Below, piece after piece: positions 1,595-9,842 of a stretch of 30,634 bases of DNA. This DNA comes from a virus (taxonomy: Duplodnaviria; Heunggongvirae; Uroviricota; Caudoviricetes). Position 1 is the first letter of the stretch, and each line of letters opens with the position of its first letter. A program made the position numbers and the translations under genes. The stretch lies in the IMG/VR virus record IMGVR_UViG_2563366824_000009; one strand, 5' to 3'. Below the pieces are notes generated by a model that was given only the letters and a program-made list of their open reading frames with translations, did not search any database and was not told where the DNA came from.

Positions 1595-2440
1595 TTAAAC
1601 ATGCTTTTCCAAAGTAAAAATAACCGCACCTGATGGTGTGATATCTGAAATATTACATTCAAACTCAGCAGACTTATTTGATAACCTGACCTTTCCGCCT
1701 GGCAACCTGATTACGTCAAAAACATCGAGTGCGCCATCAATACCAATAAGCCAGCGACCATTTCCTATCTTCGAGTTAGAACTATCAACAAGCCAAGATG
1801 TGCTCACACCATCAATAAACACTAAATCATCAGTATTTGATGGAACCATAGATATATCAGGAGTCCAGCGTCCGATATCTTTGAGTTCGCCCGCCTCGAG
1901 GCGGCACTTTCTAATCGTTAAAGCATTTGCCGGTTCACCATCATTACTGTTACGCATCTGGCCTTTTCCGGTTGATAACCATTCTAACGATACGCCAGTA
2001 TCAAGGGCGCAAGTGACAACCACGTCACCGGGGAAAAAATCGCGTCTAACCCAAGTGCTTATAGTGCCGGAAGATATGCCTAATAAATCTCCAAGCTCTT
2101 TTTGCAGAGTAAAACCATACGCATCGAGAATCCGACGCAGAACCGCCCTCCCTCCATTTGCCATGATTTCATCATAGAGTTGCTTACCTTTAAGCTTAGT
2201 TTTCACCACTTCAAATCTTGCATTTGCAAGCTCACCATTAATTAGCCATCGCAGGTCAGCTCCAGTATCAAGAGCACACTCAACGAAAACGTTGCTAGGG
2301 ATTACGTTTCTAGCAAGCCAGCTACTCACGTTGTTTGCATGTATGCCAAGCCTTTCGGCTAGTTCCTTTTGCTGCTTAAAGCCGTATGCAGAAAGGACAC
2401 GTTCCAATGCGGCAGACGCATTAACATCATTTTTAGACAT
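1595..2440 (-). CDS. Immunity repressor: tandem 186-CI-type HTH domains plus C-terminal S24 (LexA/CI-like) domain
   Basis: Start placed at ATG 2440 (MSKNDV...), not the ORF-track start at 2629; two internally repeated HTH modules (LERVLSAYGFKQQKELAERLGI... and LRRILDAYGFTLQKELGDLLGI...); C-terminus with DISMVP ... GKVRL resembling LexA Ser/Lys region. Confidence 0.7.
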   Translation of the reverse strand: MSKNDVNASAALERVLSAYGFKQQKELAERLGIHANNVSSWLARNVIPSNVFVECALDTGADLRWLINGELANARFEVVKTKLKGKQLYDEIMANGGRAVLRRILDAYGFTLQKELGDLLGISSGTISTWVRRDFFPGDVVVTCALDTGVSLEWLSTGKGQMRNSNDGEPANALTIRKCRLEAGELKDIGRWTPDISMVPSNTDDLVFIDGVSTSWLVDSSNSKIGNGRWLIGIDGALDVFDVIRLPGGKVRLSNKSAEFECNISDITPSGAVIFTLEKHV

Positions 2441-2461
2441 ATGACACCAACAATAATTTTG

Positions 2462-2490
2462 TTTACAACCAAAATTTAGCGATCTATATT
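2462..2490 (+). promoter_or_regulatory. Putative sigma70 early (lytic) promoter: TTTACA - 17 nt - TATATT
   Basis: -35 TTTACA at 2462..2467, 17-nt spacer, -10 TATATT at 2485..2490, upstream of the Cox-position gene; in switch region between repressor and early operon. Confidence 0.45.
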
Positions 2491-2553
2491 GGTGCTCATC
2501 GACCAAGATGCACACCACTGCACTACATTTCAAACAACAGGAGATAATGCGAT

Positions 2554-2925
2554 ATGTCAGATGCAAAATCAATCTCGACGAATGATTCGCAAAACTCACA
2601 AAATCAAACTGTGCTGTTAGATCCAACACAGTTTGATGCCATCGTTACCGCCATGCTGCCAGCTCTCCAGACAATGATTCGCTCCGCTATGTCAGACACG
2701 ATGACTGTGAAAGACTTCGCCGCTACTCGCGGTGTTAGCGAGCGTCTGGTCTGGCAATGGCTCGATGAGGGAGTCCTTCTCAAAGCTCCGACCAAAGACT
2801 TTTCCAACAAAGAGGAAGCTGCTAAACGAAGCCGAACCCTCGTAAACGTAAAAGCATGGCGCGATAAGCTGACTCAACAAGCGATTGATTGTCGCTACAT
2901 CGACCAGCGCACCGCTCTTAACTGA
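2554..2925 (+). CDS. Excisionase-family HTH DNA-binding protein in Cox/Apl position
   Basis: 123 aa; AGGAGA SD 9 nt upstream; HTH-like segment MTVKDFAATRGVSERLVWQWLDEG; first gene of rightward early operon opposite the repressor. Confidence 0.55.
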   Translation: MSDAKSISTNDSQNSQNQTVLLDPTQFDAIVTAMLPALQTMIRSAMSDTMTVKDFAATRGVSERLVWQWLDEGVLLKAPTKDFSNKEEAAKRSRTLVNVKAWRDKLTQQAIDCRYIDQRTALN

Positions 2926-3675: not shown

Positions 3676-3977
3676 AAGCGGGTGAACGTCTGGCCGGTCT
3701 CAATCATGTTGCCGAATTGCGCGCGAGATATTGGGGCGATAGCTGGAAAGAGGTTGAACGTTTTGTCGATGATATGCGCGATAAACGTGACCCACAATTT
3801 GAAGAAAATAATCGGGCGCTGGCCGCTATTTTCTTTCTGGCAAAAATACCGGCGGCTCGTCATGAACTCGAATTAAGTGAGCTGACTACTGACGAGAAAA
3901 AGGCGCTTATTACAGCGATGAATCATTTTCGTGCAGTAGTGAGCTTATTTCCCAAACGGCTAACCATGCCGAATTAA
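3639..3977 (+). CDS. Hypothetical early-operon protein
   Basis: 112 aa; G-rich SD immediately upstream; no recognisable motif. Confidence 0.5.
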   Translation: MAIEAVSATVPLKAGERLAGLNHVAELRARYWGDSWKEVERFVDDMRDKRDPQFEENNRALAAIFFLAKIPAARHELELSELTTDEKKALITAMNHFRAVVSLFPKRLTMPN

Positions 3978-4044
3978 TCCAAACAGAAATTTAATGGCGT
4001 AAACCCGCCGGGCATCTTATTGCCCGAAATCAGGAGAGTTAATT

Positions 4045-4272
4045 ATGCGTAATACCGAAATCCGTAGTTTTAACACTGATAGCGATGCGCTGGCCGTATT
4101 GCTGACCGATGCAAAAAAAGAAGAGCGTAAAGACCGCGCGCTCGCTGTTTCCATCCGCCTTGAGGCGCTGGCTATCCATATTACCAGAGAGGGAATGAGC
4201 GGCACCGAAGCTGCCGAACTGCTGCGCCGTGAAGCAACCCGCTTTGAGAATGAATCACAGGAGCTGCACTAA
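4045..4272 (+). CDS. Hypothetical early-operon protein
   Basis: 75 aa; AGGAGAG SD at 4031..4037. Confidence 0.5.
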   Translation: MRNTEIRSFNTDSDALAVLLTDAKKEERKDRALAVSIRLEALAIHITREGMSGTEAAELLRREATRFENESQELH

Positions 4273-4494: not shown

Positions 4495-6717
4495 TTGGCT
4501 GTTCAATTCGCTTATCCGTGGAACGTCCCACGGTCGGCAATCTCCAGCCCATACCTTACTTATGAGCAACAGCATCGCCGCGACCGTATGTTCGCGGCTT
4601 TGCTGCATGCGAAAAAGGTGCTTTCTCTCCAGCCCGACTGCGTGCGGTTAGATGTTTATCGCACTGCTGCGGTGCTGGAGCAAAATCAGGGTAGTCAACG
4701 AGCCAATGCATTTTTAATCAGCTTCTGCAAAAAGGCATTGCCGCGTCTTGAACTGGTCGCAAAAAAATACGAATGCGCTGGTATCAACAGCAAGGTATCA
4801 ACCGCTGTTTTTGGAAGTCATTTTGATACTCAGCAAATGCAATATCTGTCGTCACGCATGGTTAATATGGTCGCCCGATATAACCGTCTCCCGGACATGT
4901 CGCGCGCTGATGTTGACCTGTTGGCCGCTGATATTGCTAATTTCATTCGTGGTGAACTTGCCAACATTAATGACCACGGATTCGGCGAGCTTAAAACGCT
5001 GTACACCTGGTATATTCGTGCTGGCTTTATTTCCCTCCAATTCAACGTTATCCCACCACATTGGGAGCGGGTTGAAAAAAAATATGTCGGTGCGGATGAA
5101 ATCGCACCGGCTATCGCCAAAATGTTTAACGATGGGTGGTGGCGCGGTCGTTTGCGCCGTGTTGCAGCTACGTGGCGCGAACACCTGCAAATTGCAGTCG
5201 GCAACGTCAGTAAGAAAAAAAACACTTACGCGAGTAAAAACTGCGTGACTGACTGGCGTGAACAAAAGCGCCGCACTCGTGAATTTCTCAAAGGTCTGGA
5301 TCTCGAAGACGAAGACGGCAACCGTATCAGCCTAATTGAAAAATATGATGGCTCAGTTGCTAACCCTGCGATTCGCCGCTGTGAGCTCATGACCCGCATT
5401 CGTGGGTTTGAAAACATCTGTAATGAGCTCGGTTATGTCGGTGAGTTTTACACTCTAACCGCGCCGTCAAAATATCACGCCACGACTAAAGCCGGTTACC
5501 GTAACAGCAAATGGAGCGGTGCCAGCCCGGCTGACACGCAAAACTATCTAACCGGTATCTGGGCGCGTATCCGTGCCAAACTACATCGGGAAGATGTCCG
5601 TATTTTCGGTATTCGTGTCGCCGAGCCCCATCACGACGGCACTCCACACTGGCACATGCTGATGTTCATGCTGCCGGAAGATGTTGAATATGTTCGCTCC
5701 ATCGTCCGTAAATACGCATGGAAAGAAGACCGCCACGAACTGAAAAGCGATAAATCCAAAAAAGCACGTTTCCACGCCGAGTCCATTGACCCGGAGAAAG
5801 GCAGCGCAACCGGCTATGTTGCTAAATACATTTCAAAAAATATCGACGGTTATGCTCTCGATGATGAAACCGATGATGAAAGCGGTGAGCTGCTGAAAGA
5901 GACAGCCCCCGCCGTTTCAGCATGGGCTGCGCGCTGGCACATCCGTCAGTTTCAGTTTATTGGTGGTGCGCCGGTGACGGTTTACCGTGAGTTGCGTCGC
6001 CTCGCTGATACCGAAACCGCGCACGGTCTGAGCGTTGAGTTTGCCGCCGTCCATGATGCCGCCGACGCTGGTGACTGGGCTGGTTATGTTAATGCTCAGG
6101 GTGGGCCGTTTGTCCGTCGCGATGATTTACAGGTGCGCACACTGTATGAACCGCGTACCGAGCTTAATCAGTACGGTGAGGAAACGGTATGTATTAAGGG
6201 GGTCTACGATTCCTCCATAGGTGCAGGAAGCCCGATTTTAACCCGGCTCACTCAGTGGAAGATTGTTCCGAAGCGTGCTGTTGATTTGGCCGTTGACCTT
6301 CAGGACGGCAAAGCCGTCCCTCGGAGTTCTGTCAATAACTGTACGGGAAGCGAAAGCGATCCACCGATACTGGATTTAACAAAACCACTGAGTCGGCGTG
6401 AAAGACGAGAATTAACCAACCGACTCAGGAAGCAAAAGCCAGCAGCACGGCGAAAATTCATCCACGGAACGGATGAGCAAAACGCAGCTATAGCTAAAAC
6501 TATCGATGAGATACATCTGACAACCGGCATTAATATCAGCCGGGGCGAAGCCCTGCACCTGATGGCCGGTGGTAAAAGTTGTTTTGATGGTAAATGGCTA
6601 CGCGGAACGGCCAAAGGAGAAATATTTTCCGCAGCACCATCGCATGAGGCTAAAGCTCGGAAAATCCTTAATCGTGTTGCGGCGATGGCTGAAGCATCAA
6701 AACCAATACATGAGTAA
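4495..6717 (+). CDS. A: Rolling-circle replication initiator endonuclease (P2 gpA family)
   Basis: 740 aa; TTG start preceded by GGGGGG SD; HUH-like PHWHMLMF and paired tyrosines in YVAKYISKNIDGY. Confidence 0.9.
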   Translation: MAVQFAYPWNVPRSAISSPYLTYEQQHRRDRMFAALLHAKKVLSLQPDCVRLDVYRTAAVLEQNQGSQRANAFLISFCKKALPRLELVAKKYECAGINSKVSTAVFGSHFDTQQMQYLSSRMVNMVARYNRLPDMSRADVDLLAADIANFIRGELANINDHGFGELKTLYTWYIRAGFISLQFNVIPPHWERVEKKYVGADEIAPAIAKMFNDGWWRGRLRRVAATWREHLQIAVGNVSKKKNTYASKNCVTDWREQKRRTREFLKGLDLEDEDGNRISLIEKYDGSVANPAIRRCELMTRIRGFENICNELGYVGEFYTLTAPSKYHATTKAGYRNSKWSGASPADTQNYLTGIWARIRAKLHREDVRIFGIRVAEPHHDGTPHWHMLMFMLPEDVEYVRSIVRKYAWKEDRHELKSDKSKKARFHAESIDPEKGSATGYVAKYISKNIDGYALDDETDDESGELLKETAPAVSAWAARWHIRQFQFIGGAPVTVYRELRRLADTETAHGLSVEFAAVHDAADAGDWAGYVNAQGGPFVRRDDLQVRTLYEPRTELNQYGEETVCIKGVYDSSIGAGSPILTRLTQWKIVPKRAVDLAVDLQDGKAVPRSSVNNCTGSESDPPILDLTKPLSRRERRELTNRLRKQKPAARRKFIHGTDEQNAAIAKTIDEIHLTTGINISRGEALHLMAGGKSCFDGKWLRGTAKGEIFSAAPSHEAKARKILNRVAAMAEASKPIHE

Positions 6718-6791
6718 TTCATATCCATATCATGCACATACAGCAATCGCTCTATTCGTTTTTTTTCTTCCCATCTTTTGCCAATACATGC

Positions 6792-6811
6792 TACTGTATA
6801 AATATACAGTA
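6792..6811. promoter_or_regulatory. LexA box (SOS operator) TACTGTATAAATATACAGTA
   Basis: Palindromic CTGT-N8-ACAG match; candidate -35 TTGCCA at 6778..6783 places the box over the -10 region; 20 nt upstream of ORF 6831. Confidence 0.7.
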
Positions 6812-6830
6812 ACCCTATGGGAGGGATTTC

Positions 6831-7013
6831 ATGGTTGGCGAACATTTCAGCCGAACGCAGCAAAAGTGGGCTTGTGTGCAATTTATTGCCGAGGTATCTC
6901 TGATTGCAAACTGCAAGCCATCAGACTTAAAGCTCGCGCTCACTCTCATTGCAGACCTAGCAAACAGCGAAAATAACGAAACCGAAGATGATAATTTTTA
7001 TAAGGCTGATTAG
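6831..7013 (+). CDS. N-terminal part of Tum-like SOS-induced gene (60 aa), ends at in-frame TAG
   Basis: GGGAGG SD 6 nt upstream of ATG; in the same reading frame as the DinI-like ORF, separated only by TAG plus one codon. Confidence 0.45.
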   Translation: MVGEHFSRTQQKWACVQFIAEVSLIANCKPSDLKLALTLIADLANSENNETEDDNFYKAD

Positions 7014-7016
7014 ATT

Positions 7017-7250
7017 ATGAGAATCAATATCACGTTGGATAAAGAGCAAAAAATTAGTCAGGCAACATTGGATGCACTTGAGGCTGAACTGTACCGCAAT
7101 CTTCAACCTATTTACCCAAAGACTGCTATCCGAATTCGCAAGGGCTCCGCTAATGGCGTTGAACTAAGCGGTTTGAAACTGGACGAAGATAAAAAACGAG
7201 TAATGGAAATCATGCAGCAGGTATGGGAGGACGATAGCTGGCTGCATTAA
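7017..7250 (+). CDS. DinI-family protein (DinI-like domain as in 186 Tum C-terminus)
   Basis: 77 aa; MRINITLDKEQ...DALEAELYRNLQ...RIRKGSANGVELSGLKLDEDKKRVMEIMQQVWEDDSW matches DinI family pattern and length. Confidence 0.85.
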   Translation: MRINITLDKEQKISQATLDALEAELYRNLQPIYPKTAIRIRKGSANGVELSGLKLDEDKKRVMEIMQQVWEDDSWLH

Positions 7251-7252
7251 CA

Positions 7253-7321
7253 AACGCCGCCGGTGCTGAAACTTGCTTTCAGTGCTGGCGGGGTTGAACA
7301 ACTCGCACCGCGAGGCGCTAG
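7253..7321 (+). repeat. Copy 1 of 69-nt structured 3' element (15-bp stem, loop CTTGC at 7257..7291)
   Basis: Begins 2 nt after the DinI-like stop; about 85 percent identical to copy 2; stem pairs fully only as plus-strand RNA (uses G-U pairs). Confidence 0.6.
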
Positions 7322-7445
7322 TTCTTCCTCTCAAAGTTTCTCGATGTTTTATTGGTTACACACCAGTGATGAATGGGACGTTACCTTAGCGGGTTTTATA
7401 GTGGCGCTGTGGCAGCACTAAATAAAATTCATTGAGGGCGATAAT

Positions 7446-7655
7446 ATGCATCGACTACCGGGCGAAATTCCGCAGCACAAAACTAAAAGCATCAAACTGA
7501 TGGCCATCGTTCATCGTCTGCAGCAGATAATGGTCAATGAGAATTTGACACCCGCCGAGCTGGTCGGGTGTGCCGAAATAGTCAGGGATAATTACGGCAA
7601 GCTGGATAGCATCAGCAAGCCGACACATTACTCACCGCCACCACGTCGACCATAG
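7446..7655 (+). CDS. Hypothetical small protein (variable region)
   Basis: 69 aa; GAGGG SD 5-6 nt upstream; followed directly by repeat copy 2. Confidence 0.45.
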   Translation: MHRLPGEIPQHKTKSIKLMAIVHRLQQIMVNENLTPAELVGCAEIVRDNYGKLDSISKPTHYSPPPRRP

Positions 7656-7657
7656 AT

Positions 7658-7726
7658 AACGCCGCCGGAGTTGAAACTCGCTTTCAGGTCTGGCGGGGTT
7701 GAACAACGAGCTACGCGAGGCGTTAG
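7658..7726 (+). repeat. Copy 2 of 69-nt structured 3' element (stem-loop 7662..7696)
   Basis: Begins 2 nt after the stop of ORF 7446..7655; compensatory substitutions relative to copy 1 preserve pairing. Confidence 0.6.
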
Positions 7727-7788
7727 CCGGTCATAGCGTCGCAAATACTTCAACCGTCTGCTGGTTAAATAATTCGAGGTTTTTGGAC

Positions 7789-7983
7789 ATGCAAAATCCC
7801 CTTTCATCGAAAAATGACCCGTTTGCCGATTGGGCAAAGAATCTGACTTTAATGGCTTTAAATAACGACCTGAGCTCTCGCGAGGTGGAAAGCTACACCG
7901 CAAAAATGGTCGAGCAGGCCGGTAAAGATGAGCTATCAGTCGTTATCAAACACCTGTTAAATCACATCAGAATGCGCAAATAA
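7789..7983 (+). CDS. Hypothetical small protein (variable region); possibly distant paralogue of 7446..7655
   Basis: Start moved to ATG 7789 (MQNPLSS...) with GAGG about 9 nt upstream, because the ORF-track start overlaps repeat copy 2. Confidence 0.4.
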   Translation: MQNPLSSKNDPFADWAKNLTLMALNNDLSSREVESYTAKMVEQAGKDELSVVIKHLLNHIRMRK

Positions 7984-7999
7984 GAGGAACTATATAAAT

Positions 8000-8101
8000 A
8001 TGTTATCTCTCGTTTATGAAAATCCGTGGACGACGATTTTTCTGATGATTGTTGCCAGCATGTGCCTCAACAGTGTTATTGGCGCATTGCGCGGTCATTA
8101 A
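8000..8101 (+). CDS. 33-aa hydrophobic peptide MLSLVYENPWTTIFLMIVASMCLNSVIGALRGH (small membrane peptide)
   Basis: Not in ORF track (too short); AAGAGGA at 7982..7988 before ATG 8000; single predicted TM helix; followed by terminator. Confidence 0.35.
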   Translation: MLSLVYENPWTTIFLMIVASMCLNSVIGALRGH

Positions 8102-8122
8102 TCGCGACAAAACCAGACTAAA

Positions 8123-8150
8123 GCCGGCACCCTGAATGCCGGTTTTTTTA
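8123..8150 (+). terminator. Rho-independent terminator (CCGGCA / TGCCGG stem, 7-nt loop, T7 tract)
   Basis: Stem 8124..8129 with 8137..8142 followed by TTTTTTT at 8143..8149. Confidence 0.55.
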
Positions 8151-8309
8151 TGCCATTTTTCCGCGAATTTCCCGTTTTTTAGTCGTGCATGCATCAGGTG
8201 CATGGTTTTGCATGCGTCAGTCTTGCCCGTTCTGTTCGTGCGCCGCCAGAGCTAGCGCGGATCCAGAGTTGTCATGCAACTGCATTAAAACCGCCCCATA
8301 AAGCGGGCA

Positions 8310-8328
8310 GGCGTGGCGGGGAAAGCAT
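8310..8328. other. cos cohesive-end site GGCGTGGCGGGGAAAGCAT (186/P2 type)
   Basis: 19-mer matches the P2/186 cohesive-end sequence as recalled from memory (0-2 mismatches); position between A-side genes and portal Q as in P2 prophage maps. Confidence 0.55.
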
Positions 8329-8532
8329 TGCGCGCCAGCGGTGGTGCGTATTATTAAAAATTATCGTCTGAGAACGTCGTGACGGCGCTGTAGTGGCCGG
8401 GTGTGATCGTGGGCGCGTGGTGCGTCTGTGGCGTGGTGCTAAAGGATGGGATCAGTTGCACAATTTTACGGTTTCGCTTTGGCTAATATCCATATTGAGA
8501 CTTTATGTTCCCCACAACAGTTGGAGGCTTTA

Positions 8533-8757
8533 ATGGATAACTATCATATTACAAAAGATGGCGATAAGTGGAAGTTGCAAAAAGAGGGCAATGACCGCCC
8601 TAGCAAGACCGCGACCACAAAGGCCGAGCTGATTAAAACAACATCTGAGTTTATGTCGAACAAAACAGGCTCGGTCAAAATTCACAAGGAAGATGGGAAA
8701 ATTCAGGAAGAACGCACTTATCAGAGAAAAGATGATCCTAAAAAGTCTAAAGGCTAA
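8533..8757 (+). CDS. DUF2188-like small protein
   Basis: 74 aa from ATG 8533 with GGAGG SD; pattern YHITKDGDKWKL...GSVKIHKEDGKIQEERTYQRKDDP resembles the DUF2188 family. Confidence 0.5.
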   Translation: MDNYHITKDGDKWKLQKEGNDRPSKTATTKAELIKTTSEFMSNKTGSVKIHKEDGKIQEERTYQRKDDPKKSKG

Positions 8758-8760
8758 CAT

Positions 8761-8785
8761 AGCAAAAGCCGCCAAAATGGCGGCT
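8761..8785 (-). terminator. Terminator hairpin downstream of portal gene (8-bp stem AGCCGCCA/TGGCGGCT, loop AAA)
   Basis: Perfect inverted repeat 8767..8785; T-rich on minus strand after the stem; also lies 3' of the plus-strand DUF2188 gene. Confidence 0.5.
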
Positions 8786-8795
8786 TAAAAGGTGA

Positions 8796-9842
8796 TTATT
8801 CCGGGTTGTCGAGTGTGTACTCTTTGAACCTGATGACCTCCATACCGAGCCAGTCGTTTACCTCCCTGAACCTATCCTGCAGGGGTGACAGCTCATTACG
8901 CACAAATACCTTTGCCACCTTCTCAACGTCACCGAGTGAACCGATATTCTCGGGCTTGCCGCCCATGAGCTGGAACGGTACGCGGTGCGCGTCCATCAGA
9001 TCGGCGGCACTGGCCTTCTTGATGTTGAAAAAGTCATCCTTTGTGGCGACCTCGCTCAGTGGCACGATTTTGATGCCGTCCGGTTTTCCGCCGGGAGCGT
9101 AGAAAAACAGGTTCTTAAAGTTGCCGAGCCCTTTTGAGTTGCGCATCGCCTCGCGCAGCGATTCGACGTCGGTCGCGCTCTGCGCCGGGTCAGTCACATA
9201 CATGATGTAACCCGCGTGCGCGCCGTTCTGATAATACTTGCGGCGGAACAGCGTCGCGGATTCATTCAGCCAGGCGGAATTTAGCGCGCTGAGATATTCG
9301 GGCAGGCCGTAAATCTCCTGATTAATGTCGGGCTCCAGCAGGTGAAACACGGTATCAGGCGCGAACTCGTGCGGCTGGGTGAAGTTTTCCACAAACCAGA
9401 AAATCGAATCGTCGACTCCGCGTCGGGTGTATTTGGCTGGCGAGGCCAGCAGTTTGATTAACTGGCCGGTGACACTGTGGCGCTGCTCAAGAAAGGCGTT
9501 ACCGAACACCAGATAATCGAGCGCAAAGCGGCTGAAATCCTGACGGGATAACAACGGGTGCGGAATGTAGGTGCTCGCGAGCACGTTACGCTTAACATAA
9601 ATTGGCGAGCTGTGATGCACGGCAGAGCGCAGGCTCTTTGCCAGCCCTGAGAAGCTGACCGGCGGCTCGTACCATTTGCCGTTACTGATGCACTCGACGT
9701 AATCCAGAATGTCGCGCTTATCGAGTACCGGCACCGGCTCGCCGAAGGTGAACGCTGTCGTTTTTGGCGGTGCGCTGGCGGTCAGTTGTTGTGGTTTGCT
9801 GGCCTTTTGTGCGTTGGCTTTACGGGATTTTTGTTTACCCAT
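8796..9842 (-). CDS. Q: Portal protein (P2 gpQ family)
   Basis: 348 aa (P2 Q about 344 aa); adjacent to and co-oriented with terminase P, divergent from O. Confidence 0.9.
   Translation of the reverse strand: MGKQKSRKANAQKASKPQQLTASAPPKTTAFTFGEPVPVLDKRDILDYVECISNGKWYEPPVSFSGLAKSLRSAVHHSSPIYVKRNVLASTYIPHPLLSRQDFSRFALDYLVFGNAFLEQRHSVTGQLIKLLASPAKYTRRGVDDSIFWFVENFTQPHEFAPDTVFHLLEPDINQEIYGLPEYLSALNSAWLNESATLFRRKYYQNGAHAGYIMYVTDPAQSATDVESLREAMRNSKGLGNFKNLFFYAPGGKPDGIKIVPLSEVATKDDFFNIKKASAADLMDAHRVPFQLMGGKPENIGSLGDVEKVAKVFVRNELSPLQDRFREVNDWLGMEVIRFKEYTLDNPE

What the first reader, a model, noticed from the sequence alone, without database searches (positions are those of the whole stretch)
7446..7983. 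Small genes in the A-to-cos variable region (P2 tin/old cargo position) are unassigned and possibly paralogous
Established knowledge: in P2-like prophages the interval between replication gene A and cos is a cargo locus (tin and old in P2) and a known hotspot for anti-phage systems. Seen in sequence: here it carries, after the SOS operon, two small ORFs (7446..7655 and 7789..7983) with acceptable SDs and weak mutual similarity (a shared K-x-L-x-LMA(I/L) block), each associated with a copy of the structured repeat. Inference: they may be duplicated small effectors or anti-defence proteins; no recognisable enzymatic motifs.
Basis: partly seen in the sequence, partly recalled or inferred. Interest (0 to 1): 0.4.

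Follow-up and report, generated by a model that had tools for sequence, protein, structure and literature searches.

The report
Unrelated small genes ending prophage SOS operon
The two small ORFs are real, conserved but mutually unrelated genes at the tail of a 186/PSP3-type prophage's LexA-controlled operon: one is a near-backbone helical protein whose distant relatives carry a ClpX-type zinc finger, and the other is paired with an overlooked 33-residue membrane peptide; their functions are untested.

Summary
The window is a complete P2/186-like (PSP3/SW9-type) E. coli prophage.

**What holds up**
- Both ORFs sit at the stated coordinates with good Shine-Dalgarno sequences.
- Each is next to a copy of a 69-nt repeat.
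- Both are under purifying selection: pN/pS is 0.16 for ORF1 and 0.29 for ORF2.

**What does not hold up**
- The two ORFs are not paralogues. BLASTP finds no alignment, hhalign gives 0.4% probability, and the Smith-Waterman score equals the shuffle mean (p about 0.48).

**ORF1 (7446-7655)**
- It is PSP3 gp37 (phrog_11386), present in 560 of 5,426 complete E. coli genomes.
- It has backbone-like GC content and nearly always lies just after gene A, orf91 or tum.
- The hairpin usually starts 2 nt after its stop codon.
- Six distant relatives add a C-terminal ClpX C4 zinc finger, and three of these were located in the same region of other P2-like phages.

**ORF2 (7789-7983)**
- It is phrog_2454, present in 94 of 5,426 genomes.
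- It is always followed, usually 16 nt later, by an unannotated 33-aa transmembrane ORF (8000-8101).
- This pair is a facultative cassette lying between the hairpin and the homologue of the 186 terminator t95b, about 210 nt from cos.

**Most likely layout:** LexA box, tumA, tumB, hairpin, ORF1, hairpin, ORF2, ORF3, terminator.

This is an ordinary locus with a few useful new details. Function remains inferred.

The parts
6792..6811 (+). LexA box (TACTGTATAAATATACAGTA) inside the homologue of the 186 p95 promoter
   Evidence: One mismatch to the consensus, 0 expected by chance. Aligns with the annotated p95/LexA site of phage 186.
6831..7013 (+). tumA (antirepressor part of the split Tum)
   Evidence: phrog_1993, E 1e-31. 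PSP3 annotates the homologue as tumA. pN/pS 0.16.
7017..7250 (+). tumB, a DinI-family protein
   Evidence: Pfam DinI, E 7e-24. PSP3 annotates the homologue as tumB.
7253..7321 (+). Hairpin element copy 1 (HP1), starting 2 nt after the tumB stop codon
   Evidence: Direct repeat. MFE -39.4 kcal/mol, z -5.4. Stem supported by covariation in 68 sequences: 95.3% of cells paired, 7 pairs with changes on both sides, 0 of 500 shuffles as good. No T-run, and not called terminator-like.
7446..7655 (+). ORF1, 69 aa; PSP3 gp37 / phrog_11386 family; predicted helical hairpin with a Pro/Arg tail
   Evidence: phrog_11386, E 1.7e-47. 184 homologous clusters at 90% identity. pN/pS 0.16. AF2 helices 10-31 and 36-57, pLDDT 77. 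Distant relatives carry a ClpX zinc finger.
7658..7726 (+). Hairpin element copy 2 (HP2), starting 2 nt after the ORF1 stop codon
   Evidence: In 76 of 85 distinct ORF1 contexts a copy lies within 120 nt downstream, and the gap is 2 nt in 62 of the 71 precisely mapped copies.
7734..7790 (-). 19-codon remnant (MSKNLELFNQQTVEVFATL*) of a 143-145-aa minus-strand gene (phrog_2266); in other phages this gene diverges from ORF2 with overlapping start codons (CATG)
   Evidence: Translation. Full-length gene in L013 and L099. phrog_2266, E 2e-61.
7789..7983 (+). ORF2, 64 aa; phrog_2454; predicted three-helix protein
   Evidence: phrog_2454, E 4.6e-40, matching from the ATG at 7789. 54 homologous clusters. 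pN/pS 0.29. AF2 pLDDT 76. No structural neighbours.
8000..8101 (+). ORF3, 33 aa, a probable single-pass membrane peptide (MLSLVYENPWTTIFLMIVASMCLNSVIGALRGH); unannotated in RefSeq
   Evidence: Follows ORF2 in 35 of 35 distinct contexts, with a gap of 16 nt in 28 of them. 33 codons kept in most copies. pN/pS 0.40. Kyte-Doolittle 19-residue maximum 2.09. Not annotated by PGAP. The codon-position bias is only a trend (p 0.28).
8120..8149 (+). Intrinsic terminator, homologue of the 186 terminator t95b (end of the SOS operon)
   Evidence: Stem plus T7. Aligns with the annotated 186 t95b and its cos-right flank.
8310..8328 (.). cos cohesive-end sequence (GGCGTGGCGGGGAAAGCAT)
   Evidence: Read. The ORF3-to-cos distance is 196-221 nt in every related locus that has both, and 207-214 nt in nearly all.

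Best explanation
The finding covers the distal part of a 186/PSP3-type SOS operon, not a pair of duplicated effectors. The order is: p95-like promoter with LexA box, tumA, tumB, hairpin, ORF1, hairpin, ORF2, ORF3, t95b-like terminator, cos.

**Shown**
- ORF1 and ORF2 are genuine protein-coding genes of two unrelated families.
- ORF1 is a near-core gene of enterobacterial P2-like phages. It is placed after A/orf91 in P2-type phages or after tum in 186-type phages, and a conserved RNA hairpin usually follows 2 nt after its stop codon.
- ORF2 is always coupled to the tiny hydrophobic ORF3. The pair is a facultative, lower-GC cassette between the hairpin and the operon terminator.
- This window is a deletion derivative. 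It has lost the divergent phrog_2266 gene that accompanies the pair elsewhere.

**Inferred**
1. All three ORFs lack promoters of their own and are co-transcribed from the LexA-repressed promoter through the hairpins. They would therefore be made on DNA damage, at prophage induction.
2. The hairpins have no U-tract. In 186 one copy lies upstream of the mapped terminator. They most likely act in the mRNA as 3'-end or processing barriers that set relative cistron levels. At the DNA level, as direct repeats, they act as the junctions where cassettes are gained and lost.
3. ORF1 is a small (about 8 kDa) helical-hairpin protein-binding module with no catalytic capacity. Its domain is repeatedly fused to a ClpX-type zinc-binding domain in related phages. 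The most likely activity is therefore binding a partner protein so as to modulate a ClpX-linked step, by adaptor, decoy or protection of a phage or SOS protein.
4. ORF2-ORF3 is a soluble three-helix protein plus an inner-membrane peptide. It most likely acts at the membrane during induction or in the lysogen (exclusion or host-physiology modulation), comparable in role to 186 orf97, which occupies the same operon position.
For: **Gene reality**
- pN/pS is 0.16, 0.29 and 0.40 for ORF1, ORF2 and ORF3.
- Third-position bias is significant for ORF1 and ORF2.
- Both give full-length PHROG matches and have many homologues.

**ORF1 and ORF2 unrelated:**, and different predicted folds.

**Operon frame**
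- LexA box, and promoter homology to the annotated 186 p95.
- DinI domain.
- Terminator and cos flank homologous to 186 t95b.
- No sigma-70-like promoter on the + strand between 6600 and 8800.
- In 186 the same hairpin element lies between orf97 and the annotated p95 transcript terminator t95b, so transcription passes through it.

**Hairpin**
- 128 copies, all on the + strand.
- Covariation and many G-U pairs indicate an RNA on the + strand.
- Homology between loci breaks right after GTTAG.
- L114 and L110 have tumB-HP-ORF2, as expected after recombination between the two copies.

**Slot anatomy**
- An empty slot has hairpin-to-cos = 208-211 nt.
- ORF3-to-cos is 207-214 nt in nearly all loci that have ORF3.
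- Other cargo occupies up to about 3.3 kb.
- ORF2 is always found with ORF3.
- GC is 51% for ORF1 against 43-44% for ORF2 and ORF3.

**ClpX link**
- A profile search of 1.84 billion representatives found only 31 clusters.
- Six of them (E 2.7e-11 to 1.3e-4) have Pfam zf-C4_ClpX at 42.8-68 bits against a cut-off of 27.
- P0196 and P0194 lie downstream of gene A and upstream of cargo, cos and portal in P2-like prophages. Phage P88 gp19 lies in the same region.
- Alignment A4 shows a shared roughly 50-residue domain with invariant Leu25 and Cys42.
Against: - No expression data exist. Co-transcription from p95 and read-through of the hairpins in this phage are inferred from 186 annotation and from the absence of promoter-like sites by a simple scan.
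- A 124-nt untranslated, C-rich gap after HP1 could allow Rho-dependent polarity.
- ORF1 itself has no zinc finger (one Cys, no Pfam hit). A fused ClpX-type domain may simply be a dimerisation module, so the ClpX connection is guilt by fusion.
- One fused relative (P0203) lies outside a phage context.
- AF2 models are of moderate confidence (pLDDT 76-77) and have no structural neighbours.
- ORF3 coding evidence is weaker: codon-position bias p = 0.28, and frameshifted or truncated copies in several loci. ORF3 was not found in two small-protein data sets searched.
- Nothing tested here shows what any of the three proteins does.
Confidence: 0.55

Rival explanations
1. One reading: ORF1 and ORF2 are duplicated (paralogous) small effectors or anti-defence proteins, each carried with a copy of the repeat.
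For: Both are small, helical and basic-to-neutral, lie in the A-to-cos variable region, and each adjoins a hairpin copy. A short K-x-[IL]-x-LMA-[IL] string is shared.
Against: There is no detectable homology at sequence or profile level, and the shared string scores at the shuffle mean. The predicted folds differ. GC content differs, 51% against 44%. Their distributions are very different, 560 against 94 E. coli genomes. The hairpin belongs with ORF1, tumB and 186 orf97, not with ORF2 as such.
Confidence: 0.03
2. ORF2-ORF3, and perhaps ORF1, are themselves the anti-phage (or anti-defence) cargo of the P2 hotspot: a minimal exclusion system expressed in the lysogen.
For: The locus is the established P2 hotspot between gpA and gpQ (PMC9122126). 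186 orf97 at the equivalent operon position blocks 186 infection when expressed from a plasmid (record annotation). ORF2-ORF3 is facultative and low in GC. Small membrane proteins are a known class of exclusion factor (own knowledge).
Against: There is no PADLOC match. ORF2-ORF3 coexists with a complete type VI retron in the same slot and always sits at its cos-proximal edge. No own promoter was found, so expression in an uninduced lysogen is doubtful. ORF1 is too widespread and too fixed in position to be exchangeable cargo.
Confidence: 0.2
3. ORF3 is a type-I-like or TisB-like membrane toxin, and ORF2 (or the divergent phrog_2266 protein) is its antidote: an SOS-triggered toxin-antitoxin or abortive module.
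For: ORF3 is a 33-aa peptide with one strongly hydrophobic helix. It sits downstream of a LexA box and is tightly coupled to ORF2.
Against: ORF3 persists intact without ORF2 in L035, L038 and phage SEN1. It also persists without the phrog_2266 gene in this window. That is not expected if either protein were an essential antidote. No antisense RNA was sought or found, and there are no family matches.
Confidence: 0.1
4. The ORFs are not functional proteins. Conservation reflects DNA- or RNA-level constraints (cos-flank packaging signals, the hairpin, the 5' region of a neighbouring gene).
For: ORF3 lies about 210 nt from cos at a fixed distance. Its codon-position signal is not significant. ORF2 overlaps the start region of a divergent gene in other phages.
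Against: pN/pS is well below 1, with a third-position excess for ORF1 and ORF2. Phages lacking ORF2-ORF3 keep the same cos flank (hairpin-to-cos 208-211 nt), so the cassette is not needed for cos. ORF2 and ORF3 stay intact here although the divergent gene is deleted.
Confidence: 0.05
5. The hairpin elements are DNA recombination sites of an integron-like cassette system (each ORF plus its structured site being a mobile cassette), rather than RNA elements.
For: The layout is promoterless ORFs each followed by a roughly 70-nt structured repeat. Homology between phages breaks precisely after the element's ...GGCGTTAG end. Cassette loss is consistent with exchange between copies (L114). From my recollection, a 2004 paper (Nilsson et al., Mol Biol Evol 21:1) argued for site-specific recombination at this region. 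I could not read it.
Against: The element's ends read AACGCC...GGCGTT, not the attC RYYYAAC...GTTRRRY arrangement. No integron integrase is known in these phages (own knowledge; not searched here). Frequent G-U pairs and strict + strand orientation favour an RNA role. Ordinary homologous recombination between 69-nt direct repeats explains the cassette losses.
Confidence: 0.1

Closest known systems
SOS operon of coliphage 186 (p95/LexA, tum, t95a, orf97, t95b; Brumby et al. 1996 as annotated in NC_001317)
   Same: Homologous promoter with LexA box, Tum/DinI coding sequence, terminal terminator t95b and cos flank. The same hairpin element is present, between orf97 and t95b. Non-essential distal gene(s) lie downstream of tum.
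   Different: Tum is split into tumA and tumB. The intrinsic partial terminator t95a is replaced by the U-less hairpin. The 243-aa orf97 is replaced by three small genes with no similarity to it.
Salmonella phage PSP3 / SW9 right-end region (tumA, tumB, gp37, ...)
   Same: About 92% DNA identity over most of the region. ORF1 is PSP3 gp37. SW9 has the same tumA-tumB-HP-ORF1-HP-ORF2-ORF3 order.
   Different: PSP3 carries a different gene (gp38) instead of ORF2-ORF3 after the second hairpin. ORF3 is not annotated in any of the three records inspected (SW9, and two E. coli RefSeq chromosomes).
P2 tin/old 'TO' region, the gpA-gpQ anti-phage hotspot (Rousset et al. 2022, PMC9122126)
   Same: Same genomic interval next to cos. 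Related loci carry recognised defence systems there, for example a type VI retron.
   Different: P2 itself lacks ORF1, the hairpin and ORF2-ORF3. P2 Orf91 is a DUF3850 protein, not ORF1. This window carries no recognised defence system at the slot. tin and old are on the opposite strand with their own promoter.
ClpX N-terminal C4 zinc-binding domain (Pfam PF06689) and ClpX adaptors such as SspB
   Same: Six remote ORF1 relatives end in a bona fide ClpX-type zinc finger. Like SspB, ORF1 is a small protein with a flexible C-terminal tail (own knowledge for SspB).
   Different: ORF1 has no zinc finger and no similarity to SspB. No interaction with ClpX has been tested. The fused domain may serve only for dimerisation.
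SOS-induced small membrane toxins (TisB, DinQ) and phage small membrane exclusion proteins
   Same: ORF3 is a roughly 30-residue single-helix hydrophobic peptide downstream of a LexA box.
   Different: There is no sequence similarity or family match. ORF3 is the last cistron of a protein-coding operon rather than a stand-alone gene with an antisense RNA. Toxicity is unknown.
Intercistronic stabiliser hairpins (REP-type elements) and integron attC sites
   Same: A conserved, U-less GC-rich stem-loop lies directly after stop codons in a polycistronic unit, repeated between cassettes.
   Different: It is not a REP sequence and matches no Rfam family. It lacks attC core sites. It is restricted to Peduoviridae of Enterobacterales.

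Membership tests
phrog_11386 / PSP3 gp37 family (ORF1) | Full-length profile match and positional equivalence | tested here: met
   E 1.7e-47 over residues 1-69 of 69. 92% identical to PSP3 gp37 at the same position.
phrog_2454 (ORF2) | Full-length profile match | tested here: met
   E 4.6e-40 over residues 1-64 of 64, starting at the ATG at 7789.
Paralogous pair (ORF1 ~ ORF2) | Sequence or profile similarity above chance | tested here: not met
   BLASTP finds no alignment. hhalign probability 0.4%. Smith-Waterman p about 0.48.
186-type SOS operon | LexA box overlapping a p95-like promoter upstream of tum | tested here: met
   TACTGTATAAATATACAGTA at 6792-6811. Aligns to the annotated 186 p95/LexA site.
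186-type SOS operon | Tum antirepressor with DinI-like C-terminal part | tested here: met
   tumA phrog_1993; tumB Pfam DinI 7e-24. The gene is split, as in PSP3.
186-type SOS operon | Partial intrinsic terminator t95a after tum | tested here: not met
   186 t95a (stem plus T-run) has no counterpart here. The U-less hairpin element occupies the site and is not terminator-like.
186-type SOS operon | Terminal terminator t95b next to cos | tested here: met
   8120-8149 aligns with the annotated 186 t95b and its cos flank.
186-type SOS operon | Distal genes co-transcribed from p95 on SOS induction | not testable with these tools
   Supported only indirectly: no + strand promoter-like site, and in 186 the hairpin lies upstream of the mapped terminator.
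ClpX C4-type zinc finger proteins (PF06689) | Four-Cys zinc ribbon matching the Pfam model above its cut-off | tested here: not met
   ORF1 has one Cys and no PF06689 hit. Six remote relatives do match, at 42.8-68 bits against a cut-off of 27. ORF1 shares only their N-terminal domain.
Known anti-phage defence systems (PADLOC-DB v2) | Match to a defence-protein model | tested here: not met
   No hits for ORF1 or ORF3. The only ORF2 hit is E 0.033, 11.8 bits, to PtuB.
Intrinsic (Rho-independent) terminator (for the hairpin element) | GC-rich stem followed by a U-tract | tested here: not met
   The stem is present, but it is followed by GGGGTTGAACAAC. The scan does not report it.
Integron attC cassette site (for the hairpin element) | RYYYAAC ... 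GTTRRRY core sites in attC arrangement, and an IntI integrase | tested here: not met
   The ends read AACGCC...GGCGTTAG, with AAC/GTT outermost. No search for IntI was run.
Type I toxin / TisB-like peptide (ORF3) | Small hydrophobic peptide | tested here: met
   33 aa; Kyte-Doolittle 19-residue maximum 2.09.
Type I toxin / TisB-like peptide (ORF3) | Toxicity on expression and a cognate antisense RNA or antidote | not testable with these tools
   There is indirect evidence against an ORF2 antidote: ORF3 occurs without ORF2.

The most novel reading that the evidence does not exclude
The ORF1 domain defines an uncharacterised family of temperate-phage proteins that target ClpX-dependent proteolysis. 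In Serratia, Pectobacterium and Cedecea prophages, and in coliphages P88 and D6, the domain carries its own ClpX-type zinc-binding domain, acting as a decoy or heterodimerising module. In Escherichia, Salmonella and Klebsiella P2-like phages the zinc finger has been replaced by a Pro/Arg tail. The protein would protect a phage or SOS factor from ClpXP, or redirect it, at induction or during early replication. In parallel, the conserved U-less hairpin would be a new phage RNA element that both partitions the operon mRNA and serves as the junction for cassette exchange at the P2 defence hotspot.
Probability: 0.15. Interest if true: 0.6.

Novelty: new member of a known kind. Interest (0 to 1): 0.3.

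Why it matters
The practical gain is a cleaner map of the most studied anti-phage hotspot of P2-like prophages:
- which small genes are framework (ORF1 plus its hairpin on the left, and the terminator and cos flank on the right);
- which are exchangeable (ORF2-ORF3, the phrog_2266 gene, retrons and so on);
- where the junctions lie.

Surveys that take everything between gpA and gpQ as one candidate locus will otherwise have these genes inside their candidate systems.

Three items are new and testable:
- an unannotated 33-aa membrane peptide gene;
- a covariation-supported RNA hairpin absent from Rfam;
- a domain-fusion link between a gene present in about 10% of complete E. coli genomes and the ClpX zinc-binding domain.

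None of them changes the picture of P2/186 biology unless the ClpX link is borne out experimentally.

Tried and rejected
- **Paralogy of ORF1 and ORF2:** rejected.
- **ORF1 = P2 Orf91:** rejected. Orf91 is a DUF3850 protein, and P2 lacks ORF1. The annotated Wphi 'gp92' is a different overlapping ORF.
- **ORF1 related to TumA:** the single-pair Smith-Waterman p of about 0.01 was not reproduced with 12 other family members or by hhalign. Rejected.
- **ORF1 or ORF2 related to 186 Orf97:** no.
- **Known families:** Pfam, NCBIfam, PADLOC and PDB sequence searches found nothing significant for ORF1, ORF2 or ORF3. Foldseek found nothing significant with the ORF1 model against PDB, or with the ORF2 model against PDB and BFVD. 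The ORF1 model was not searched against BFVD, and ORF3 was not modelled or searched against PDB.
- **Rfam for the hairpin region:** no match at E <= 1.
- **Hairpin as intrinsic terminator:** no U-tract.
- **Pairing of the element's terminal AACGCC/GGCGTT, and a second 3' hairpin:** not supported. Variants break the pairing, and two sequence variants (CTCGC and CGAGC) coexist.
- **Own promoter for ORF1 or ORF2:** none found by scan or by eye.
- **The 145-aa divergent partner (phrog_2266):** no Pfam or PADLOC match, and only 'hypothetical protein' names.
- **Translation evidence for ORF3:** absent from the supplements of two small-protein studies.
- **Searches that could not be run:** the Nilsson et al. 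2004 paper on this region is not held. ORF3 is too short for the large homology search.
Full report
**1. Setting**

The window is a complete P2/186-like phage genome of the PSP3/SW9 type (Eganvirus). The region 6700-8500 is 92% identical to Salmonella phages SW9, SI22 and PSP3. The ORF1-plus-hairpin segment and the ORF2-ORF3 segment are each 100% identical to prophages in complete E. coli genomes.

Around the finding the + strand reads:
- gene A (4495-6717);
- a LexA box at 6792-6811, inside a promoter that aligns with the annotated p95 of phage 186;
- tumA (6831-7013);
- tumB, a DinI-family protein (7017-7250; Pfam DinI E 7e-24);
- a 69-nt structured repeat (7253-7321);
- ORF1 (7446-7655);
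- the second repeat copy (7658-7726);
- ORF2 (7789-7983);
- a 33-codon ORF (8000-8101);
- an intrinsic terminator (8120-8149);
- the cos sequence (8310-8328);
- a DUF2188 gene (8533-8757);
- the portal gene Q on the minus strand.

**2. The observation**

The claimed weak similarity is chance:
- BLASTP gives no alignment at E <= 100.
- Profile-profile comparison of the two family alignments gives 0.4% probability.
- The best local alignment is exactly the K-x-[IL]-x-LMA-[IL] block. It scores 22 against a shuffle mean of 22.1 (p about 0.48).
- AlphaFold models differ. ORF1 is a two-helix hairpin (helices 10-31 and 36-57, pLDDT 77). ORF2 has three helices (pLDDT 76).

**3. Are they genes?**

Yes.
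- ORF1 matches phrog_11386 end to end (E 1.7e-47) and ORF2 matches phrog_2454 end to end (E 4.6e-40).
- In a collection of 5.8 billion protein clusters, ORF1 has 184 homologous clusters and ORF2 has 54. All that carry a source name are from Enterobacterales, and none has a Pfam domain.
- Across 112 related loci from IMG/VR, pN/pS is 0.16 for ORF1 and 0.29 for ORF2. That is comparable to tumA at 0.16.
- Variable sites are enriched at third codon positions (p about 0.001 for each).
- RefSeq annotates both as hypothetical proteins.

**4. ORF1 is a near-backbone gene**

- It is PSP3 gp37.
- It is not P2 Orf91, which is a DUF3850 protein. P2 itself lacks ORF1.
- In P2-type phages (Wphi and many ECOR and Yersinia phages) it follows the orf91-like gene after A. 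In 186-type phages it follows tum.
- In 76 of 85 distinct contexts the structured repeat lies within 120 nt downstream. It starts 2 nt after the stop codon in 62 of the 71 precisely mapped copies.
- Its GC content (51%) matches the backbone (52%). tumA, tumB, ORF2, ORF3 and the DUF2188 gene are at 41-44%.
- ORF1 plus the repeat is found in 560 of 5,426 complete E. coli genomes.

**5. A functional lead for ORF1**

A profile search of 1.84 billion representative proteins found only 31 clusters.
- Six of the more distant clusters (E 2.7e-11 to 1.3e-4) share the ORF1 domain and add a C-terminal ClpX C4-type zinc finger. The Pfam PF06689 scores are 42.8-68 bits against a cut-off of 27.
- The sources name them 'ClpX C4-type zinc finger protein', from Serratia, Pectobacterium and Cedecea.
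- Two of them are encoded in P2-like prophages downstream of gene A and upstream of cargo, cos and portal. One of these is followed by a canonical terminator and then cos.
- Coliphage P88 (Peduoviridae) has such a protein in the same interval. The P1-like phage D6 has one among its accessory genes.
- Alignment A4 shows a common domain of about 50 residues with invariant Leu25 and Cys42.

ORF1 itself has no zinc finger. It ends in a variable Pro/Arg-rich tail.

The inference is that ORF1 is a protein-binding module whose partner or pathway is linked to ClpX. This rests on fusion alone. The ClpX-type domain is also a stable dimerisation unit (established knowledge), which is the simplest alternative reading.

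**6. ORF2 is half of a two-gene cassette**

- In 35 of 35 distinct contexts ORF2 is followed by the 33-codon ORF3 (MLSLVYENPWTTIFLMIVASMCLNSVIGALRGH). The gap is 16 nt in 28 of them.
- ORF3 has its own AAGAGGA/AAAGGA ribosome-binding site.
- ORF3 keeps 33 codons in 25 of 32 unique DNA variants, and its pN/pS is 0.40.
- It has one strongly hydrophobic segment (Kyte-Doolittle 19-residue maximum 2.09).
- Its codon-position bias is only a trend (p = 0.28), and several copies are frameshifted or truncated. I call it a probable gene.
- It is not annotated in the RefSeq records inspected. It was not found in the supplements of two small-protein studies.
- ORF3 also occurs without ORF2, after what looks like a precise deletion, in L035, L038 and phage SEN1. 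That argues against ORF2 being an essential antidote to ORF3.

In many phages a 143-145-aa minus-strand gene (phrog_2266, unknown function) diverges from ORF2 with overlapping start codons. This window retains only its first 19 codons (7790 down to 7734). The present arrangement is therefore a deletion derivative.

ORF2-ORF3 is in 94 of 5,426 E. coli genomes.

**7. Anatomy of the slot**

- In every locus that has both, the end of ORF3 lies 196-221 nt from cos, and 207-214 nt in nearly all.
- Where neither ORF2 nor ORF3 is present and nothing else is inserted, the end of the repeat lies 208-211 nt from cos (L008, L045, L049, L053).
- Phage 186 has orf97, the repeat, about 20 nt, then t95b.
- Other phages carry 0.2-3.3 kb of other genes at this point. 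One example is a type VI retron (HTH plus reverse transcriptase; PADLOC E 7e-31 and 7e-105) lying upstream of phrog_2266-ORF2-ORF3 in an E. coli O157:H7 prophage.
- So ORF1 plus the repeat marks the left edge of the hotspot, and the terminator and cos flank mark the right edge. ORF2-ORF3 is a small facultative module that hugs the right edge.
- A second variable slot lies between cos and Q. It is 179-184 nt when empty, and 470 nt here with the DUF2188 gene.

**8. The structured repeat**

- I found 128 copies in the fetched loci, all on the + strand.
- It is present in 67 phage records, all Peduoviridae of Enterobacterales, and no feature is annotated as this element in any listed record.
- Rfam has no match.
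- An 18-pair stem is supported by covariation: 95.3% of cells are paired, 7 pairs have changes on both sides, 0 of 500 shuffles reach this, and slid controls give 32-48%.
- The abundance of G-U pairs points to an RNA on the + strand.
- The 3' third (GGGGTTGAACAAC...GCGAGGCGTTAG) is conserved in sequence rather than in pairing.
- Homology between loci ends right after GTTAG.
- There is no U-tract, and the terminator scan does not report the element.
- In 186 the element sits upstream of the annotated p95 transcript terminator t95b. Transcription evidently passes through it.
- I infer an mRNA 3'-end or processing barrier that separates cistrons. At the DNA level, the direct repeats provide cassette junctions: L114 and L110 have tumB-repeat-ORF2, the expected product of recombination between the two copies.
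- Membership of intrinsic terminators or of integron attC sites was tested and not met.

**9. Mechanism, with what is shown and what is inferred**

Shown:
- gene reality;
- non-paralogy;
- family membership;
- positional conservation;
- the ORF2-ORF3 linkage;
- the RNA hairpin;
- homology of the promoter/LexA box and of the terminator with the 186 SOS operon.

Inferred:
- co-transcription of ORF1-ORF3 from the LexA-repressed promoter, supported by the absence of any + strand promoter-like site in 6600-8800;
- expression at SOS induction;
- a ClpX-linked binding role for ORF1;
- a membrane-level accessory role for ORF2-ORF3, comparable to 186 orf97, which blocks 186 infection when expressed from a plasmid (record note).

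**10. Verdict**

The locus is an ordinary variant of the known 186/PSP3 SOS-operon and P2-hotspot architecture, built from catalogued but uncharacterised families. The useful additions are the refutation of paralogy, the ORF3 gene, the slot map, the covariation-supported hairpin, and the ClpX zinc-finger fusion lead. Interest is modest (0.3). It would rise if ORF1-family proteins were shown to act on ClpX.

Noticed in passing
window 8533-8757 (+): A DUF2188 gene sits in a second variable slot between cos and the portal gene. It matches the PADLOC candidate defence protein PDC-S16 (E 9e-15). In related phages this slot is 179-184 nt when empty and up to about 2 kb when filled.
   Followed up: partly
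window 7253-7321 and 7658-7726; 186 (L119) 3845-3915: A conserved 69-nt element has a covariation-supported 18-bp RNA stem and a sequence-conserved 3' part. It is absent from Rfam and not annotated as a feature in any listed record of the 67 Peduoviridae records that have it. It always lies on the early/SOS-operon strand, usually 2 nt after a stop codon. Homology between phages breaks right after its GTTAG end.
   Followed up: yes
window 8000-8101 (+): An unannotated 33-codon ORF encodes a single hydrophobic helix. It is conserved next to the SOS-operon terminator about 210 nt from cos, and is present even where ORF2 is deleted.
   Followed up: yes
window 7734-7790 (-): A 19-codon remnant of a 143-145-aa gene (phrog_2266, unknown function). 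In other phages this gene diverges from ORF2 with start codons overlapping as CATG.
   Followed up: partly
window 1595-2629 (-): The repressor-like ORF contains two tandem helix-turn-helix-like repeats (...AYGFKQQKELAERLGI...WL... and ...AYGFTLQKELGDLLGIS...W...), followed by a C-terminal domain.
   Followed up: no
L125 3483-3815 (phage P88 gp19); L126 2522-2842 (phage D6 orf93): Proteins with an ORF1-like N-domain plus a ClpX-type zinc finger are named 'carboxylate--amine ligase' in RefSeq. This looks like a misannotation for proteins of about 110 aa.
   Followed up: partly
L005 3863-4057 vs 4001-4177 (phage Wphi): The annotated Wphi 'gp92' CDS is a different, overlapping ORF from the conserved ORF1 homologue, which is itself unannotated in that record.
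   Followed up: no
L099 2192-3440; L121 704-1940 (E. coli O157:H7 FRIK2533): A type VI retron (HTH plus reverse transcriptase) occupies the same slot immediately upstream of the phrog_2266 / ORF2 / ORF3 module.
   Followed up: partly
L114 3634-4192; L110: Some phages have tumB-hairpin-ORF2 with ORF1 missing. The surviving hairpin has the 5' flank of copy 1 and the body of copy 2, as expected from recombination between the two direct copies.
   Followed up: partly
window 7322-7445: A 124-nt untranslated spacer between the first hairpin and ORF1 begins with a C-rich, G-poor stretch (TTCTTCCTCTCAAAGTTTCTC). This could be a Rho loading site giving polarity in place of the 186 partial terminator t95a.
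   Followed up: no
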